Source: Escherichia phage vB_EcoS_G29-2. From it: 51,739 nucleotides of DNA. Below the pieces are notes generated by a model. That model worked only from the letters and a program-made list of their open reading frames with translations. It did no database searches and had not been told where the DNA came from. The stretch is taken from sequence record NC_049822.1. One strand, 5' to 3'. Shown one piece after another: positions 38,570-45,015 of the stretch. Each line of letters begins with the position of its first letter. The stretch's first letter is position 1. Made by a program: the position numbers and the translations under genes.

Positions 38570-40640
38570 ACTCCAAATGGCATTACTCAAAGGTTTTAGA
38601 ATGATTCCAAACATTGAAAAGCAAATATCAGCACTTGGTGAAGCGGTAATTAAATCCATTCAGGAGCGGTTCACTGTTGGCGATATTGTGCCTTACCCTT
38701 ACCAGTGCGTTGCATACGCTGAGATCGCAAAGCGTATGAAAAATTATGAGCATCCATTCTTTGTTAAAGCGTCGGTATCGGCTGGCAAAACATTGATGTT
38801 TGCAATGGTTGCTCACCAGTGCCGGAAAATGGGCTTAAAAATGATGGTTCTTGCTCGCCAAGCTGAGATTGTGGATCAAGATTCTGAAGAGATAACAAAT
38901 CTTGGCGTGCCGAACTCAATCTATTGCGCAGGGCTGAAGACAAAGAGCGCATACTTTCCGATCGTTGTTGGTTCTGAGGGAACTGTAGTTAATGGACTGT
39001 TTAAAGCGCTTGGCGACTATGTTCCGCACGTTATCGGGATTGACGAGTGTCACCAGGTGGATTGGGAAGACCTTGCCGACGCCATAGAGAAAGATGAGTC
39101 ATTTTTACAAATGACGACAAAGAAAGGCGAAAGAGTACCAAATCCAGATTATGACATAGAGAGCGATAACGAGTGCGAAGAGTTCCTGATTGGTGAGGAT
39201 GGCTTGCCAATGGAGGGAACAGGCCGCACACAATACACTGTCATTATCATGGAAATGATGCGACGTTGCAGGAAAGCATATGGCCATGAACTGCGCATAT
39301 TTGGCATGACTGGATCGGAGTTTCGCGGTGTAGTCCCAATACTGGTAGAAGATAAAAAGCAGAAAGGATTTTGGCGTGAACAGGTTACTAATATTGACAC
39401 CAACTACCTGATCAAGTTCGGTTCTGTTGTTCCGACTAATTTTGGCGACGTTGGCGATCTCGGGTATGACCTTTCAGAGTTTGAGGCATCAAGCGAGGAT
39501 GGCGTTGCAGACTTTGACGCTAAAACGCTTCGCAGGATGGAACAAAAAATTCATGAAGAAGCGACCATGACAAAGCGCATCATGGCGAAAGTGCACGAGA
39601 TCTGTAAAAACCGTAACGGTGTACTTGTGACATGTGCAGGCGAAAGGCACTGTAAAGAGGCGGCGGCAGCATTGCCGCCTGGAACGACTTACAGGATCAT
39701 TACTGGTAAGACTGGCGATAACCAGCGCAAGGAGTGGTTGAAAGAAGCATACGAGGGAAAGGTTAAATACATCTTCCAGGTGCAGGCGCTAACTACTGGC
39801 GTTAACGTGCCGTTTTGGGATACGTCTGTTATTCTGCGTAAGATTGGATCTCTTACGTTGCTGATTCAGCTTTTAGGGCGCGGAATGCGACTGCTTAAGA
39901 AATGGCATAAGGAGCAAGGATTCAAGAAAGATGATCATCTCGTCATGGATTTTTCAGGAACGATGGACGAGCTAGGGGAGCTTTATTTTGATCCGATACT
40001 GGAACAGGCGCAGCACCAGAAGCGATTCAGAAATGGTAAAGATCCGAAGCCTTGTCCTGTTTGCGGAACTCTTAACAGCTATTATGCTCGTCGTTGTATG
40101 CACGTAGACGAAAACGGCAACAGATGCGAGTGGTTCTTTAAATTCAGGACATGTGATGATCAGATTGACCCGCGCACTAAAAAGATTATTCATCGCGGTT
40201 GCGGAACGAAGAATGATATTGCGGCCAGGGTATGCAGACATTGCGACATGTCATTGATTGACCCTAACGAGAAGTTAAGCGGAAAGCACTACACAAAAAA
40301 CGACTGGTTTCAGGTGCAATCTTTCTCGGTTGACATGACGAAAAACCAGAAAGGGATAATATTTAATTATGAGCTTTCCGATGGCATAGACACTTTCAGG
40401 GCGAGAGAGATATTTTTCCCTGAATCTGAGAGCCAAATTTGCCGCGCAAAATGGCGAAGCGTTGCTCTTAAGCACATACCAGATCGCCGTGTTGCTGGCA
40501 TGGTGGCGAGCTATCGTAATGCACGTAAAATCATGCAATATGTGAATCACATCATGCCACCATCGCGTGTAACTCACCGCAAGACTAGCAAGGGTGAAGA
40601 TAATTTGTACAAGAAGGACTTTAATTATGGCAATGACTGA
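38535..40640 (+). CDS. ATP-dependent helicase (SF2, DEAH-type) with C-terminal zinc ribbons
   Basis: Walker A SAGKT, DEAH-like IGIDECHQV, C-terminal CPVCG...C...C clusters; start uncertain (38535 TTG, ATG 38578 or 38601). Confidence 0.75.
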   Translation: MLNDDLMIVYYTLQMALLKGFRMIPNIEKQISALGEAVIKSIQERFTVGDIVPYPYQCVAYAEIAKRMKNYEHPFFVKASVSAGKTLMFAMVAHQCRKMGLKMMVLARQAEIVDQDSEEITNLGVPNSIYCAGLKTKSAYFPIVVGSEGTVVNGLFKALGDYVPHVIGIDECHQVDWEDLADAIEKDESFLQMTTKKGERVPNPDYDIESDNECEEFLIGEDGLPMEGTGRTQYTVIIMEMMRRCRKAYGHELRIFGMTGSEFRGVVPILVEDKKQKGFWREQVTNIDTNYLIKFGSVVPTNFGDVGDLGYDLSEFEASSEDGVADFDAKTLRRMEQKIHEEATMTKRIMAKVHEICKNRNGVLVTCAGERHCKEAAAALPPGTTYRIITGKTGDNQRKEWLKEAYEGKVKYIFQVQALTTGVNVPFWDTSVILRKIGSLTLLIQLLGRGMRLLKKWHKEQGFKKDDHLVMDFSGTMDELGELYFDPILEQAQHQKRFRNGKDPKPCPVCGTLNSYYARRCMHVDENGNRCEWFFKFRTCDDQIDPRTKKIIHRGCGTKNDIAARVCRHCDMSLIDPNEKLSGKHYTKNDWFQVQSFSVDMTKNQKGIIFNYELSDGIDTFRAREIFFPESESQICRAKWRSVALKHIPDRRVAGMVASYRNARKIMQYVNHIMPPSRVTHRKTSKGEDNLYKKDFNYGND

Positions 40641-41046
40641 TAAAGGCGATTATCTGGAGTTTTACGAAAGAGATCCGACGGATACGCTAAAAGAGGAATC
40701 ACACCAGATCGGGGCGTTTCAATGGTTGACTTATGCTTACCCTGAATTGCTGGCATGGCATACGAAAAACGAGGGCGACAAGGGGATCGCCACCGCAATG
40801 ATGGATCAGCAAGCCGGACTCGTTAAGGGCGTAAGTGATTTTATCATCCTGATTGGATTAAAAGGCCGTTATCCGTTTGCAGCAATTGAGATGAAGCGCG
40901 TCAATAAGTCTGGAAAGGGTAAGGCTTCACCAGTCAGTAAGGAGCAAAAAGCCTTCTTACGACGTGTGCGCGAGCTTGGCGGATTCGCTGCCGTAACATA
41001 CGGATATAAGCAATTCATGATCGCTGTAGAATACATGATGAAATAG
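40627..41046 (+). CDS. VRR-NUC domain nuclease
   Basis: PD-(D/E)xK-like SDFIILIG...AIEMKR; start overlaps helicase stop. Confidence 0.6.
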   Translation: MAMTDKGDYLEFYERDPTDTLKEESHQIGAFQWLTYAYPELLAWHTKNEGDKGIATAMMDQQAGLVKGVSDFIILIGLKGRYPFAAIEMKRVNKSGKGKASPVSKEQKAFLRRVRELGGFAAVTYGYKQFMIAVEYMMK

Positions 41047-41088
41047 CACTTTTTGTTAAAACAGGCGCGAAGGATTGCGCCATAATAA
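41042..41088 (+). promoter_or_regulatory. conserved motif promoter (hairpin GGCGC/GCGCC, -10 CATAAT)
   Basis: motif then 19 bp then ATAATA. Confidence 0.55.
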
Positions 41089-41120
41089 CACCAGTTCAAC
41101 AAGCAACAGGTAATTAAGAA

Positions 41121-41822
41121 ATGATCAAAGAAACCGAAGTGACATTTGAACAAATCGAACGAGAAACATTCATTGGCAATGCTCTTGCTACCGGAGGCTA
41201 TTACCAGGCTGTTAAACCAAATCAATATTATAAAGTCACTGGCAACCGCTATAACGGCAGCAATACGCCGGACGTTGTGCGAGATTTGTGGTCTACGCCG
41301 TCTGAGCTTGTCGCATGGATGGAAATCGAATACGGTGATTATGACATCGACGCTGCGGCAAGCAAAGAAAATGCTGTATGTGAAAAATTCTACAGCAAGG
41401 AAACAAATTGCTTAAAGCGTTGGTGGGGTAGTAATAAGCATATCTGGCTGAATCCACCGTACAGCAATATAACGCCTTTCGTTAAGAAAGCGATTGAGCA
41501 AATGGAGCACAATAACCAGATCGACATTCTGTTACCTTGCGACACATCGACAGGATGGTTTTATGAGGCACAACAGAAAGCAGCGGAAATAATCTGGATC
41601 ACTGGCGAAGTTTACCAGGAGGAAGGAATAGAATATTCCAGAACTGGACGGCTTGCTTTCACTTCAGCGCTTACAGGTAAACCAGTGCAGGGAAACAACA
41701 AAGGAAGCGTTATTTTCATCATGCGCGAACTTAAAGAAGGTGAGCAGCAGAAAACTCGATACGTTAAGATCAGCGACATTTGCCCGTCAGTGGCAGAGCG
41801 TCGAGCAAGAAAGCGGAGTTAA
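41121..41822 (+). CDS. dam: DNA N6-adenine methyltransferase (phage Dam family)
   Basis: catalytic motif WLNPPYS (NPPY); size typical of phage Dam. Confidence 0.75.
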   Translation: MIKETEVTFEQIERETFIGNALATGGYYQAVKPNQYYKVTGNRYNGSNTPDVVRDLWSTPSELVAWMEIEYGDYDIDAAASKENAVCEKFYSKETNCLKRWWGSNKHIWLNPPYSNITPFVKKAIEQMEHNNQIDILLPCDTSTGWFYEAQQKAAEIIWITGEVYQEEGIEYSRTGRLAFTSALTGKPVQGNNKGSVIFIMRELKEGEQQKTRYVKISDICPSVAERRARKRS

Positions 41823-41826
41823 TATC

Positions 41827-42066
41827 ATGCAGAAAGAAAGAAGCGTTTATTTAAATGAAACTGGAGAGTGGTTGTTATTTCGCGCTATGGTTTGCGAGGC
41901 GCTTGATAAAAACGAGTTCATAAAACCGCTATTAGGTTGTGATCCGTGGGAGTTTACAAGCGCGCTTGATATGAGCTTTGAGGAAACAAGAAAACTACCG
42001 CTTGAAAAATGGCATGAGCAGATCGGTAAAGACTTGCAAGAGTTTTACGAATCCGCGACAAAATAG
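41827..42066 (+). CDS. hypothetical protein
   Basis: RBS GGAG; stop in motif copy at 42062. Confidence 0.45.
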   Translation: MQKERSVYLNETGEWLLFRAMVCEALDKNEFIKPLLGCDPWEFTSALDMSFEETRKLPLEKWHEQIGKDLQEFYESATK

Positions 42067-42107
42067 CACTTTTTGTTAAAAAGCCCGGCCCTGTGTCGGG
42101 CATAATT
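42062..42107 (+). promoter_or_regulatory. conserved motif promoter (hairpin GCCCG/CGGGC, -10 CATAAT)
   Basis: motif then 19 bp then ATAATT. Confidence 0.55.
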
Positions 42108-42138
42108 ATTTCATCAAAACGAACAAGAGGAAAACAAA

Positions 42139-42318
42139 ATGGTTGTTTACGATCCACGCGCTTTTAAAATTGCTCAAGAAGTTTCACGCGAATCTGTTGC
42201 TGGCGGTTCGGTTAACGGCTATCAGTTTGATTGGTCGGCAGCAATGACCTTGCTTAAGGTTGCATATGGTCACGCGCCAATTGAAACAGCGGAGGCATAT
42301 TATAAGCATGAAGGTTGA
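42139..42318 (+). CDS. small hypothetical protein (59 aa)
   Basis: not in track; RBS AAGAGGAAAA downstream of motif promoter. Confidence 0.4.
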   Translation: MVVYDPRAFKIAQEVSRESVAGGSVNGYQFDWSAAMTLLKVAYGHAPIETAEAYYKHEG

Positions 42319-42550
42319 ACAAGGTAGGCAGGCTGTATGGGATCACGCAAAGGAATGTGGGATCTCTGAAGACATAGCCAGGATAGCAAAATATTTTGAT
42401 ATTGCTGACATAAGCATTATAAGCGGCGACAAAATGACTTTTCTCAATGAACGCCCGCGCAAGATGCATCGCGTCCCAGCAATACCAACAAAGATTGATT
42501 TCAAAGAGGCTATGGCGAAAATTCGCGAGCCGCGCAAATACTACAAATGA
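42308..42550 (+). CDS. hypothetical protein
   Basis: ATG with GGAGG upstream, overlaps previous ORF. Confidence 0.4.
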   Translation: MKVEQGRQAVWDHAKECGISEDIARIAKYFDIADISIISGDKMTFLNERPRKMHRVPAIPTKIDFKEAMAKIREPRKYYK

Positions 42551-42648
42551 GGATTATTATCATGTGGCGTTTGTTACTTTTGCCCTTACCTGTTATGATG
42601 GCGATCTCTATTGTATATGTTGTCATAATGAGATAAGGAGAATTTTTG

Positions 42649-43764
42649 ATGAAGCAAATCAAAATCACAGATGAACAATTTATCAATGAGCGCAAGCAGG
42701 GAAAGACATATAAGCAGATAGCTAATGAGTATGGTATGAACGTTCGCAGCATTGAGCGACGCGCAGCGCGACTTGCAAAGCAAGGTAAAGTTACAACCAT
42801 CGGATCACCTGGCTTTGGCGTTACTGGAGAATCAAAGCTAATTGATAAAGATGGCAATGTGGTTATGACATGGATTAAGACAAGCAAGGACCGCGAGCAG
42901 TTAGAAGCATTAATGCAGGCCGCTATGGATGCATTTAGCGAAGAAGTTCCGCGACTTGATCCGCAACCAGAATCACAAAAGGATTATAGCGAGACGTTAT
43001 CACTGTATCCGATCTTTGACATGCACTTGGGCGCAATGGCGCATAAGCATGAATGCGGAGAGAATTGGGATACAGCAACAGCAGAGCGCGTAATGAATAA
43101 TTTCATTGATTATTCTATCCAGTGCGCGCCGGATAGCGAAAAAGCTGTTTTGCTGATTGGTGGCGATATGCTTCACAGTGACGGACTTGAAGCGGTTACA
43201 CCTGCAAGCGGTCACGTATTGGATCAAGATAGTCGATACGCAAAACTTGTTTATGTTGCCATCCGGTCAGTGCGTCGAGCAATCACAAAGCTGTTATCAA
43301 AACATAAAAACGTAGAGATTCAGATAATTGAAGGCAACCACGACCAAAGCGGCATGATCTGGTTGCGCGCAGCAATGGCGGCAGCATATGAGAATGAGCC
43401 GCGAGTGCATGTTGATGTGTCTCCGCGAGTGGTTCATCACACACAATATGGCAAAACATTCCTGGCATACCATCATGGGCACACTATCCGCAAGCCTGAA
43501 ACATTGCTCATGATGTGTGCGGCAGACTGGCGCGAAGACTTCGGAAATTCAAAAATGATGTATGCTCACGTAGGGCACTGGCATCATCAGACAGTAACTG
43601 AAACAAGCCTGGGCATTGTTGAAGTGCATAGCACTATGGCGGCAAAAGATGCATATGCGGCGCGCGGTGGATGGCGTTCTCGACGCCGTGCGGCTGTTAT
43701 TGTTTACGATAAAGAATACGGAGAGGTAGGGCGATTTATGCATTATCCAGAAATGGCTTATTGA
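42649..43764 (+). CDS. calcineurin-like metallophosphoesterase with N-terminal HTH domain
   Basis: motifs GGDMLHSDG, GNHDQ, GHWHH; N-terminal YKQIANEYGMNVRSIERRAARL; RBS AAGGAG. Confidence 0.65.
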   Translation: MKQIKITDEQFINERKQGKTYKQIANEYGMNVRSIERRAARLAKQGKVTTIGSPGFGVTGESKLIDKDGNVVMTWIKTSKDREQLEALMQAAMDAFSEEVPRLDPQPESQKDYSETLSLYPIFDMHLGAMAHKHECGENWDTATAERVMNNFIDYSIQCAPDSEKAVLLIGGDMLHSDGLEAVTPASGHVLDQDSRYAKLVYVAIRSVRRAITKLLSKHKNVEIQIIEGNHDQSGMIWLRAAMAAAYENEPRVHVDVSPRVVHHTQYGKTFLAYHHGHTIRKPETLLMMCAADWREDFGNSKMMYAHVGHWHHQTVTETSLGIVEVHSTMAAKDAYAARGGWRSRRRAAVIVYDKEYGEVGRFMHYPEMAY

Positions 43765-43807: not shown

Positions 43808-43838
43808 GGGCGTGGCATTTTGCTTCGCCCTTTTTTTA
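43808..43838 (+). terminator. rho-independent terminator before lysis cassette
   Basis: GGGCG-loop-CGCCC + TTTTTTTATT. Confidence 0.65.
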
Positions 43839-43910
43839 TTCCTTTTTGTGCGTTCAATGGTTAGGATACAATCAATTAATTGTTGACTTTTATCTACAGG
43901 AGATCTAATC

Positions 43911-44126
43911 ATGAAAGATTTTTTAAACGCTGCAACTTCCGGCACTGGCGGAGCGTCAATCACTGGCGCGGTAACTGGTCAAACAACTATTGCAATAGCC
44001 AGCTTCGTTTTGATGGCTGCATTTGGTATGTGGGGCGCTTATCTTCGCTGGCGTGATAGTAAGGCGCTACGTGACGCGCTTGAATGCGGTGATATTAAGA
44101 AAGCTATTGAGATCAGAGGTAAATAA
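43911..44126 (+). CDS. holin
   Basis: 71 aa, single [22 protein letters not shown], charged C-terminus, directly upstream of endolysin. Confidence 0.7.
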
Positions 44127-44614
44127 TGAGTATAAAACAAAGAGTGACCGCTGCGGCTTTTGGCGTTGCTCTTGCCCTTACTTCTCCGCTACTGGAGGAA
44201 ATAGAAGGAGTAAAACATAAGCCGTACAAAGATATTGCTGGGGTATGGACGGTTTGCGCCGGAATAACTGGCCCTGACGTAATACAAGGCAAAACGTACA
44301 CACAAAGAGAGTGCGATGCACTACTGGCGAAGCATATCAAGATCGCAAAGGATGAAGTTGATAAGCGTGTAAAGGTTGACATTCCTGATACAATGCGCGC
44401 AGCAATGTATTCATTCACATACAATGCTGGAACTGGAGCTTTTAGAAATTCAACCATGCTTAAGCTGATTAATAACGGTCGTTATATGGAAGCGTGCGAT
44501 CAGTTATGGATATGGACAAAATACACCAATCCAAAAACAGGAAAGAAAGAAACGTCTAAAGGACTGCGCAACCGCCGCGCGGTGGAATTTAAATATTGCA
44601 TTAAGGATCTGTAA
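44126..44614 (+). CDS. SAR endolysin (lysozyme, E-8-D-5-T catalytic triad)
   Basis: weakly hydrophobic N-terminal signal-anchor [15 protein letters not shown] followed by E-x8-D-x5-T. Confidence 0.75.
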
Positions 44615-44616
44615 TT

Positions 44617-45015
44617 ATGCGAAAGTTATCAATAATCGCTATCGCTGTTATTTTGTCTGGATGTTCAAGCGTTACGCCACTGACCGGATTAATCGGTAGT
44701 AAGCCGGAAATCACAGCACAGGCAGGAGCGGAGAACGTAAAGCAGACCGTTGGCGTTACCGCAAAGCAGGACACCAGCACAAAACAGGAAACTACAATAA
44801 AGGAATCTGCGGTTGATAAGGTGGACACTTCCAGCAAGAAGGATTTCACTACGTCAACCATTCAGGCCAATACCATCAAGGCTGATAAAATCCAGGTTGT
44901 GCAGGGTGAGCAAAGGAAGTGGTACGATCCCATAATCTATTGCGCTGCAATTTTTAGCGGTCTTTTGTCAATGCTTTACTTTTCCTACCGCAAAGGCAAC
45001 AAAAAGGAGGCTTAA
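44617..45015 (+). CDS. unimolecular spanin (lipoprotein with C-terminal TM)
   Basis: lipobox LSG-C plus C-terminal TM IIYCAAIFSGLLSMLYF; arrangement as in T1 gp11. Confidence 0.7.
   Translation: MRKLSIIAIAVILSGCSSVTPLTGLIGSKPEITAQAGAENVKQTVGVTAKQDTSTKQETTIKESAVDKVDTSSKKDFTTSTIQANTIKADKIQVVQGEQRKWYDPIIYCAAIFSGLLSMLYFSYRKGNKKEA

What the first reader, a model, noticed from the sequence alone, without database searches (positions are those of the whole stretch)
42649..43764. Metallophosphoesterase fused to an N-terminal HTH domain
Calcineurin-like motifs (GD, GNHD, GHWHH) follow a 50-aa N-terminal domain with an HTH-like segment. Phage phosphoesterases usually lack a DNA-binding domain. The fusion suggests a DNA-targeted nuclease or phosphatase, or a self-regulating enzyme, encoded just before the lysis cassette.
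Basis: inference. Interest (0 to 1): 0.5.

Follow-up and report, generated by a model that had tools for sequence, protein, structure and literature searches.

The report
HTH-tethered phage metallophosphoesterase, likely nuclease
This gene of a T1-like coliphage encodes a small DNA-binding domain fused to an intact metal-dependent phosphoesterase that most resembles DNA nucleases; the fusion is real but is the normal form of a very large, already catalogued phage family whose biochemistry has never been tested.

Summary
ORF 42649-43764 (+) encodes 371 aa. Residues 8-44 form a three-helix HTH, followed by a conserved beta-hairpin plus helix (56-99) and a metallophosphoesterase (MPE) core (116-371). 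All five catalytic motifs are invariant across 93 diverse homologues.

The fusion is not unusual. The window is a Hanrivervirus (Drexlerviridae), 99.6% identical over the 3-kb stretch compared to phage herni, where this gene is gp12, "DNA repair exonuclease / putative phosphoesterase". It matches phrog_704 end to end (E 3e-151). The family occurs in about 2000 phage records, and 130 of 141 N-termini of family representatives share the HTH.

The syntenic Bas1 orthologue, bas01_0050 (59% identity), is reported to be toxic in E. coli. Its mutation, including frameshifts, lets Bas1 escape the DRT7/UG10 defence.

Best reading: a dispensable, stand-alone, HTH-tethered Mn-dependent DNA nuclease that perturbs DNA metabolism in the infected cell. 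A strong intrinsic terminator separates it from the lysis cassette, and I found no sign of autoregulation.

The family is known and its function untested, so interest is modest.

The parts
42571..42599 (+). Sigma-70-like promoter candidate (TTGTTA, 17 nt spacer, TATGAT, with TG before the -10) in the 98-bp gap upstream of the gene
   Evidence: Consensus scan. It is a 9/12 match, and the region as a whole has no more such matches than shuffled sequence, so this is weak evidence.
42635..42640 (+). Ribosome-binding site AAGGAG, 8 nt before the ATG
   Evidence: Read directly from the sequence
42649..43764 (+). CDS of 371 aa plus stop codon: the HTH-metallophosphoesterase. It corresponds to herni gp12, belongs to phrog_704 and is the orthologue of Bas1 bas01_0050.
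42661..42786 (+). N-terminal three-helix HTH DNA-binding domain (aa 5-46; helices 8-16, 21-27, 32-44)
42814..42945 (+). Conserved beta-hairpin (aa 56-80; G69 nearly invariant, W75 invariant in A2 and A6 and at least 90% conserved in A1) plus a long helix (82-99). This family-specific module lies between the HTH and the catalytic core, and its role is unknown.
   Evidence: Members that lack the HTH still keep this module.
42994..43761 (+). Metallophosphoesterase catalytic domain (aa 116-371). There is no Mre11-type capping domain: only about 58 residues follow motif V.
43015..43032 (+). MPE motif I, FDMHLG (D124 and H126 invariant)
43159..43176 (+). MPE motif II, GGDMLH (G172 and D173 invariant; H176 at least 90% conserved). 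This is the Mre11/SbcD-like GDxxH form.
   Evidence: The comparison with Mre11 motif II comes from my own knowledge of the family.
43333..43344 (+). MPE motif III, GNHD (N230 and H231 invariant)
43471..43482 (+). MPE motif IV, HHGH (H276 and G277 invariant)
43573..43587 (+). MPE motif V, GHWHH (G309 and H312 invariant; H310 at least 90% conserved)
43808..43837 (+). Intrinsic terminator: a hairpin at 43808-43830 followed by U7. It ends the transcription unit that contains the gene and separates it from the lysis cassette.
   Evidence: RNA fold, -14.6 kcal/mol, z -3.4, 0 of 200 shuffles fold as well
38601..41822 (+). Upstream genes on the same strand: SF2 helicase (ResIII / Helicase_C), VRR-NUC nuclease (40627-41046) and Dam methyltransferase (41121-41822). 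Three small ORFs of unknown function follow at 41827-42550.
43911..45015 (+). Downstream lysis cassette: holin 43911-44126, lysozyme 44126-44614, spanin 44617-45015. It is not part of the feature; it is listed because the finding refers to it.

Best explanation
The gene encodes a stand-alone, catalytically competent two-metal (Mn2+-type) phosphodiesterase of the nuclease branch of the calcineurin-like superfamily. Its fold is closest to PolD-DP1, Mre11 and SbcD. A flexible linker joins it to an N-terminal three-helix HTH, which holds the enzyme on double-stranded DNA.

The protein has no capping domain, and no Rad50/SbcC-like partner gene is annotated. The proposal is that the HTH, together with the conserved hairpin-helix module, supplies the DNA grip that the partner ATPase supplies in Mre11 and SbcD.

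The gene is the last in a same-strand string of replication and DNA-metabolism genes (helicase, VRR-NUC, Dam). It is an accessory, non-essential function that cuts or resects DNA in the infected cell. The target is most likely host DNA or DNA ends and replication or recombination intermediates. This would explain why the Bas1 orthologue is toxic when expressed alone, and why its loss hides Bas1 from the DRT7/UG10 defence, just as loss of the RecBCD inhibitor Gam hides lambda.

Shown: the domain architecture, conservation of the active site, the fold neighbours, synteny, and orthology to bas01_0050.
Taken from the literature: toxicity, dispensability and the escape phenotype of the orthologue.
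Inferred: that the substrate is DNA, the metal requirement, the tethering role of the HTH, and the in vivo target.
For: - All five MPE motifs are invariant across 93 homologues that are 32-81% identical to the query.
- The AF2 model is confident (pLDDT 93.4).
- The only MPE sequences the family profile touches in the PDB are SbcD/Mre11 and nuclease MPE (PdeM). All are non-significant, E 1-3.
- The HTH fold is confirmed and is conserved in 130 of 141 family N-termini.
- phrog_704, "DNA repair exonuclease", matches the full length at E 2.9e-151. phrog_284, "exonuclease", matches at 1.5e-18.
- In 38 diverse viral contigs the neighbours include exonuclease (5), endonuclease VII (5), polynucleotide kinase (6), DnaB helicase (3) and an O-like replication initiator (3). 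In E. coli prophages the gene sits directly upstream of dnaB.
- bas01_0050 is the syntenic orthologue, 59% identical over the full length.
- Bas1 mutants that escape DRT7 carry missense or frameshift mutations in bas01_0050, and its expression is toxic in E. coli (bioRxiv 10.64898/2026.02.16.706125).
- A functional precedent exists. T5 A1, a putative metallophosphatase with the same structural neighbours, is necessary and sufficient for host DNA degradation (bioRxiv 10.64898/2026.04.02.716235). Relatives of A1 also carry an N-terminal HTH.
Against: - No member of the family has been assayed.
- Pfam Metallophos is below threshold for the query (14.2 bits against 21.5).
- No specific homology to T5 A1 was found. 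hhalign gives 28.6% probability, over the GNHD region only. T5 A1 is absent from the top 50 BFVD hits.
- Toxicity of the orthologue does not prove nuclease activity.
- The gene also occurs in temperate prophages next to replication genes. That fits poorly with wholesale host-DNA destruction and points more towards a replication or recombination role.
- How phage DNA would be spared is unknown.
Confidence: 0.6

Rival explanations
1. The protein is a recombination or replication end-processing nuclease that acts on the phage's own DNA. It would have a Mre11-like role, working with the phage RecE-like exonuclease, Erf, SSB, VRR-NUC or helicases to process ends, hairpins or stalled forks during concatemer formation. 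It would not be a host-directed DNase. The biochemistry is the same as in the best explanation; only the biological target differs.
For: - The gene lies in the helicase / VRR-NUC / Dam gene string.
- Neighbours elsewhere include exonuclease, endonuclease VII, polynucleotide kinase, an O-like initiator and DnaB helicase.
- It is present in temperate lambdoid prophages.
- Mre11, SbcD and DP1 are its nearest folds.
- The phage carries exoVIII, Erf and SSB genes.
Against: - Expression of the orthologue alone is toxic to E. coli, and frameshift mutants of the phage are viable. The protein therefore acts on host material and is dispensable for replication under laboratory conditions.
- No Rad50/SbcC-like partner is annotated.
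Confidence: 0.3
2. The protein is a phosphatase or phosphodiesterase that does not act on DNA. Candidates are an RNA or DNA end-healing enzyme (2',3'-cyclic or 3'-phosphate removal) working with the phage polynucleotide kinase, or a hydrolase of nucleotide second messengers or nucleotide pools that counters host defence.
For: - Polynucleotide kinase is the immediate downstream neighbour in 6 of about 38 diverse loci. dNMP kinase and dATP/dGTP pyrophosphohydrolase are neighbours in 3 each.
- The phage encodes a PNK.
Against: - A conserved DNA-binding HTH is hard to explain for a soluble small-molecule enzyme.
- Motif II is of the GDxxH type, not the lambda-PP / CthPnkp GDxxDRG type (sequence; my own knowledge of those families).
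- No PADLOC family matched.
Confidence: 0.12
3. The protein is a transcription factor. Its HTH would bind specific phage promoter sites, either for autoregulation or for activation of the neighbouring lysis and late genes. The MPE domain would be a sensory or accessory module.
For: - An HTH of the LuxR / sigma-70 region 4 / resolvase type is typical of regulators.
- In several unrelated phage groups the gene lies next to lysis or terminase genes: T1-like phages, Dhillonvirus, a Vibrio phage and RcRios.
Against: - The catalytic residues are invariant, so enzyme activity is under selection.
- A strong terminator lies between the gene and the holin gene.
- There are no operator-like direct or inverted repeats in its upstream or downstream intergenic regions.
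- Frameshift mutants of the orthologue are viable, which an essential late activator would not allow.
- The neighbours vary widely across lineages.
Confidence: 0.05

Closest known systems
phrog_704 ("DNA repair exonuclease"), including herni gp12 and Bas1 bas01_0050
   Same: The query matches the family HMM end to end (aa 5-369 on profile positions 3-388 of 390; E 2.9e-151). The window is 99.6% identical in DNA to phage herni over the 3-kb query. The Bas1 orthologue is 59% identical and sits in the same place in the genome.
   Different: Nothing structural differs; this is the family. The name is an annotation by similarity, not a tested function. The window's copy ends 5 codons earlier than the 376-aa form found in damhaus and several other relatives.
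Mre11 / SbcD nucleases, with Rad50 / SbcC
   Different: It has no capping domain, since only about 58 aa follow motif V. No Rad50/SbcC-like ATPase gene is annotated in the phage. It carries an N-terminal HTH and a hairpin-helix module instead. Sequence similarity is not significant (E about 1).
Archaeal PolD small subunit DP1 (3'-5' proofreading exonuclease)
   Different: I saw no OB-fold domain. There is no DP2 partner, and no DNA polymerase is annotated in the closely related reference genome of phage herni. Identity is only 15%.
Phage T5 A1 (phrog_1745), the pre-early putative metallophosphatase required for host DNA degradation
   Same: Both are stand-alone phage MPEs whose structural neighbours are DSB-repair and proofreading nucleases. 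Both are toxic or DNA-degrading when expressed alone. Many A1 relatives carry an N-terminal HTH that the HTH profile built from this protein recognises (28 of 120, E down to 6e-12). Both show a similar NHDxxxSxWL stretch after motif III.
   Different: They belong to different PHROGs with no cross-hit. The profile-profile probability is only 28.6%. A1 is 556 aa and has a large extra region between the HTH and the MPE. A1 is not among the top 50 viral fold matches. A1 is essential for T5, whereas the Bas1 orthologue of this gene is dispensable.
Lambda Ser/Thr phosphatase (NinI) and other PPP-type phage phosphatases
   Same: Both belong to the calcineurin-like superfamily and are encoded by phages.

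Membership tests
Calcineurin-like metallophosphoesterase superfamily | The five metal-binding and catalytic motifs in order: DxH, GD, GNH[DE], H, GHxH | tested here: met
   D124/H126, G172/D173, N230/H231, H276 and G309/H312 are present and invariant in 93 homologues
Calcineurin-like metallophosphoesterase superfamily | The alpha/beta sandwich MPE fold | tested here: met
Calcineurin-like metallophosphoesterase superfamily | A Pfam PF00149 match above the gathering score | tested here: not met
   14.2 bits against a cut-off of 21.5 for the query. Twenty of 93 homologues match at E of 0.01 or better. The family is too divergent for the Pfam model, but its motifs and fold meet the definition.
phrog_704 (phage "DNA repair exonuclease") | A full-length match to the family HMM | tested here: met
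   E 2.9e-151, aa 5-369 on profile positions 3-388 of 390
Mre11 / SbcD | A nuclease (MPE) domain with Mre11-type motifs | tested here: inconclusive
Mre11 / SbcD | A capping domain C-terminal to the MPE domain | tested here: not met
   Only about 58 residues follow motif V, and they complete the MPE sandwich
Mre11 / SbcD | A cognate Rad50/SbcC-type ABC ATPase partner gene | tested here: not met
   No such gene appears in the full annotation of the closely related genome of phage herni. I did not search every ORF with profiles.
PolD DP1 | An OB-fold plus PDE domain, associated with the DP2 catalytic subunit | tested here: not met
   The N-terminal part is an HTH plus hairpin, not an OB fold. No polymerase gene is annotated in the phage.
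T5 A1 family (phrog_1745) | A match to the family profile | tested here: not met
   There is no phrog_1745 hit for the query, and T5 A1 does not hit phrog_704. hhalign probability is 28.6%.
PdeM (ligase-associated MPE nuclease, TIGR04123) | An NCBIfam equivalog score at or above the cut-off | tested here: not met
Helix-turn-helix DNA-binding domains (three-helix; LuxR/GerE, resolvase or sigma-70 region 4 like) | A three-helix bundle with the HTH geometry | tested here: met
Helix-turn-helix DNA-binding domains (three-helix; LuxR/GerE, resolvase or sigma-70 region 4 like) | Actual DNA binding | not testable with these tools
   This needs EMSA or ChIP with the 1-100 fragment
Active metal-dependent nuclease | Mn2+/Mg2+-dependent cleavage of DNA | not testable with these tools
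   Only indirect evidence is available: the orthologue is toxic in E. coli

The most novel reading that the evidence does not exclude
The phrog_704 proteins, and in parallel the T5 A1 family, could form a previously unrecognised class of phage "HTH-guided stand-alone MPE DNases". In this class a simple HTH would replace the Rad50/SbcC clamp. The enzymes would be host-takeover weapons that fragment or resect host DNA, or swamp RecBCD with ends. Their activity, rather than the protein itself, would be the danger signal read by defence systems such as DRT7/UG10, and possibly by retrons that monitor RecBCD. On this reading this gene would also be the long-unidentified T1 function for host-chromosome degradation.
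Probability: 0.25. Interest if true: 0.55.

Novelty: already known. Interest (0 to 1): 0.3.

Why it matters
The family is very common. It has about 4600 clusters at 50% identity and occurs in about 2000 sequenced phages, including the T1-like, Dhillonvirus, Jersey-like and Chi-like groups and E. coli prophages. No member has been characterised biochemically.

A recent preprint reports that loss of the Bas1 orthologue lets the phage escape the DRT7/UG10 reverse-transcriptase defence, and that the protein is toxic to E. coli. Knowing what the enzyme cuts would therefore help explain what that defence senses. It could also identify the host-DNA-degradation function of T1-like phages, which bears on their transduction frequency and their use in therapy.

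For this window, however, the gene is an ordinary, already annotated member of the family. The fusion that drew attention is the family's standard architecture.

Tried and rejected
- **Specific homology to T5 A1.** Single-sequence and profile-profile hhalign gave only 20-29% probability, over the GNHD region. There is no PHROG cross-hit, and A1 is not among the top BFVD matches. I keep A1 as an analogue only.
- **Autoregulation or operator sites.** A repeat search around the gene found only short, low-identity pairs of the kind chance produces. None lies in the upstream gap 42551-42648. Two weak AT-rich pairs (I3, I6) touch the downstream gap.
- **A functional link to the lysis cassette.** A strong terminator lies between them, and neighbours in other lineages are heterogeneous.
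- **Membership of a defence system.** No PADLOC match.
- **Sequence relatives with solved structures.** None was significant, with the single sequence or with the family profile.
- **The search for related loci with the 93-sequence alignment** failed because no stretch was conserved enough. It worked with an 11-sequence subset.
- **Clustering of neighbour genes by BLAST** was too insensitive. I replaced it with PHROG scans of the pooled neighbours.
- **Literature searches** for T1 host-DNA degradation genes, and for other escape-mutant reports on this family, found nothing further. The positions of the Bas1 escape mutations are not in the text or supplement held here.

Full report
**What is there.** The window is essentially a complete genome of a T1-like siphovirus. 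The 3-kb stretch around the finding is 99.6% identical to Escherichia phage herni (Drexlerviridae, Tempevirinae, Hanrivervirus) and 95-97% identical to pSf-1, haarsle, egaa and several BASEL phages.

The ORF in the finding runs from 42646 to 43764 on the + strand. The likely start is ATG 42649, 8 nt downstream of AAGGAG, and RefSeq uses the same start for herni gp12. Databases hold the same 371-aa protein, or forms about 99% identical, under the names "putative phosphoesterase" and "DNA repair exonuclease".

**Checking the observation.** All five calcineurin-like motifs are present:
- FDMHLG at aa 123-128
- GGDMLH at aa 171-176
- GNHD at aa 229-232
- HHGH at aa 275-278
- GHWHH at aa 309-313

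In an alignment of 93 homologues that are 32-81% identical to the query, D124, H126, G172, D173, N230, H231, H276, G277, G309 and H312 are invariant, and H176, D232, H278 and H310 are at least 90% conserved. The active site is therefore under strong selection. Pfam's Metallophos model is too distant to pass its threshold (14.2 bits against 21.5).

The N-terminal HTH is also real:
- Pfam HTH_28 matches aa 10-46 at E 0.0026.
- Homologues hit HTH families convincingly: Sigma70_r4_2 1.5e-9, GerE 2.4e-8, HTH_8 2.6e-7.
- AlphaFold2 gives mean pLDDT 93.4 and three helices at 8-16, 21-27 and 32-44.

One refinement is needed. Between the HTH and the catalytic core lie a flexible linker (47-55, pLDDT about 64) and a conserved beta-hairpin plus helix (56-99, with G69 and W75 nearly invariant or invariant). 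Family members that lack the HTH still keep this module.

**Is the fusion unusual?** No.
- phrog_704 matches the protein end to end, including the N-terminus (E 2.9e-151).
- tblastn finds the protein in 2041 phage records, and 1950 of them cover at least 80% of its length. The hosts include Escherichia, Klebsiella, Salmonella, Vibrio, Flavobacterium and Rhodobacter.
- An exhaustive search finds 4648 clusters at 50% identity, 1042 of them below 1e-30.
- Of the 149 best representatives, 141 have at least 30 residues (median 71) N-terminal to the hairpin.
- A profile iterated from query residues 1-52 recruits 130 of those 141 N-termini.

The HTH is therefore an ancestral, integral part of the family. 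It diverges quickly, which is why different members hit different Pfam HTH models.

The family profile touches only SbcD/Mre11 and nuclease MPE (PdeM) among MPE sequences in the PDB. All of those matches are non-significant.

Motifs I (DxHxG) and II (GDxxH, with H176 conserved) have the Mre11/SbcD form, not the PPP-phosphatase form. That comparison rests on my own knowledge of those families.

The protein is nevertheless not an Mre11 or SbcD. It has no capping domain, since about 58 residues follow motif V, and the phage has no annotated Rad50/SbcC partner. It does not reach the PdeM model (19.9 bits against 150). It matches no PADLOC defence family.

**Context in the window.** The gene is the last in a same-strand string: SF2 helicase, VRR-NUC, Dam methyltransferase, three small unknown ORFs, then this gene.

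A hairpin at 43808-43830 followed by U7 lies 44 nt after the stop codon (-14.6 kcal/mol, z -3.4, 0 of 200 shuffles fold as well). The holin, lysozyme and spanin cassette follows. Adjacency to the lysis genes therefore looks like a module boundary, not co-expression.

No operator-like repeats flank the gene. A weak promoter-like site with an extended -10 lies just upstream.

**Context elsewhere.**
- In E. coli lambdoid prophages a 66%-identical copy lies between an antirepressor gene and dnaB, downstream of the replication initiator.
- In Dhillonvirus it lies between the lysis genes and the terminase genes.
- In Jerseyvirus and a Vibrio phage it lies next to an HNH endonuclease.
- In the Chi-like phage RcRios it follows holin and endolysin.
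- Across 38 diverse IMG/VR loci the recurrent upstream neighbours are exonuclease (5) and endonuclease VII (5). The recurrent downstream neighbours are polynucleotide kinase (6), holin (6), endolysin (5), DnaB (3) and dNMP kinase (3).

Apart from lysis genes, the common theme is DNA replication, recombination and repair.

**Experimental evidence from the literature.** bas01_0050 of BASEL phage Bas1 (AugustePiccard, MZ501051) sits at the syntenic position and is 59% identical over the full length.

A 2026 preprint on DRT7/UG10 reports three things. [quoted passage not shown] Expression of that gene alone is toxic in E. coli. The lambda escape mutants map to gam, the RecBCD inhibitor (bioRxiv 10.64898/2026.02.16.706125).

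The gene is therefore dispensable for plaque formation, harmful to the host on its own, and functionally linked to DNA metabolism.

A second 2026 preprint reports that T5 A1, a putative metallophosphatase whose structural neighbours are the same DSB-repair and proofreading nucleases, is necessary and sufficient for degradation of host DNA (10.64898/2026.04.02.716235).

I tested for a specific relationship between the two families and found none:
- hhalign gives 28.6% probability over the GNHD..S.WL stretch only.
- The two belong to different PHROGs.
- A1 is not in the top 50 viral fold matches.

Even so, many A1 relatives carry an N-terminal HTH. The HTH profile built from this family recognises 28 of 120 of them. 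The HTH-plus-MPE layout thus recurs in a second family of stand-alone phage MPEs.

**Most likely mechanism.** I propose a stand-alone two-metal nuclease held on duplex DNA by its HTH. The hairpin-helix module may assist. Together they would replace the Rad50/SbcC clamp. The enzyme would be produced with the replication genes and would cut or resect DNA in the infected cell.

I put about 0.6 on "DNA nuclease". Within that I cannot decide between two targets. A host-directed role is favoured by toxicity, dispensability, the T5 A1 analogy, and my recollection that T1 degrades the host chromosome through genes that were never identified. A role on phage replication or recombination intermediates is favoured by the neighbours and by the gene's presence in temperate prophages.

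The rivals are a non-DNA phosphoesterase, such as an end-healing enzyme working with PNK or a nucleotide hydrolase (about 0.12), and a transcription factor (about 0.05).

**Verdict.** The fusion is nevertheless the ordinary architecture of a very large, already annotated phage family, and this copy matches known proteins almost exactly. Novelty is low. What interest remains comes from the lack of any biochemistry for so common a family, and from its emerging link to sensing by defence systems.

Noticed in passing
window 43808-43837: A strong intrinsic terminator (GGGCG.UGGC...GCUU.CGCCC followed by U7; -14.6 kcal/mol, z -3.4) lies between the phosphoesterase gene and the holin gene. A TTGACT-type promoter-like site follows at 43883-43912. 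The simple terminator scan missed the hairpin because of its internal mismatch.
   Followed up: yes
window 43750-43764: The window's protein ends ...PEMAY*. The 376-aa form in damhaus and several other relatives ends ...PEMADRTFNY*. The stop here comes 5 codons earlier, at the poorly conserved C-terminal tail, and is probably harmless.
   Followed up: partly
T5 A1 family proteins (P0342-P0384; alignment A5): Many relatives of the T5 pre-early protein A1, a putative metallophosphatase needed for host DNA degradation, carry a clear N-terminal HTH (HTH_23, HTH_7, HTH_38). T5 A1 itself has a diverged version. I did not see this mentioned in the passages of the A1 preprint that I read.
   Followed up: partly
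Phage database records: About 20 records labelled "Campylobacter phage" (for example A127, MG065667) and one labelled "Streptococcus phage MBBL140" carry this gene. A127 is 92% and MBBL140 79% identical in protein to the E. coli T1-like version, on genomes of about 47-49 kb. These look like mislabelled hosts or contaminant T1-like coliphages rather than true hosts.
   Followed up: no
window 41827-42550: Three small ORFs (79, 59 and 80 aa) lie between the Dam gene and the phosphoesterase gene. None has a Pfam match. One is annotated as an "HNH endonuclease motif protein" or "putative endonuclease" in some related records. In Jerseyvirus, a Vibrio phage and Bas1, a true HNH or homing endonuclease sits directly after the phosphoesterase gene.
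   Followed up: partly
window 42679-42691 and 42837-42849: A 13-nt inverted repeat (TTTATCAATGAGC / GCTAATTGATAAA, 92% complementary) brackets the HTH and linker coding segment inside the gene. It is probably chance.
   Followed up: no
window 40594-40640 / 40627-41046: The 3' end of the SF2 helicase gene overlaps the start of the VRR-NUC gene by about 14 nt, which suggests translational coupling of a helicase-nuclease pair. The genome also carries a second methyltransferase and a second helicase on the opposite strand (herni gp18, gp21).
   Followed up: no
Literature: DRT7/UG10 and the type VI retron Sen3, which monitors RecBCD, both protect against lambda and Bas01. For DRT7 the escape loci are lambda gam and bas01_0050. 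This raises the possibility that the T1-like phosphoesterase perturbs RecBCD-monitored DNA metabolism as Gam does.
   Followed up: partly
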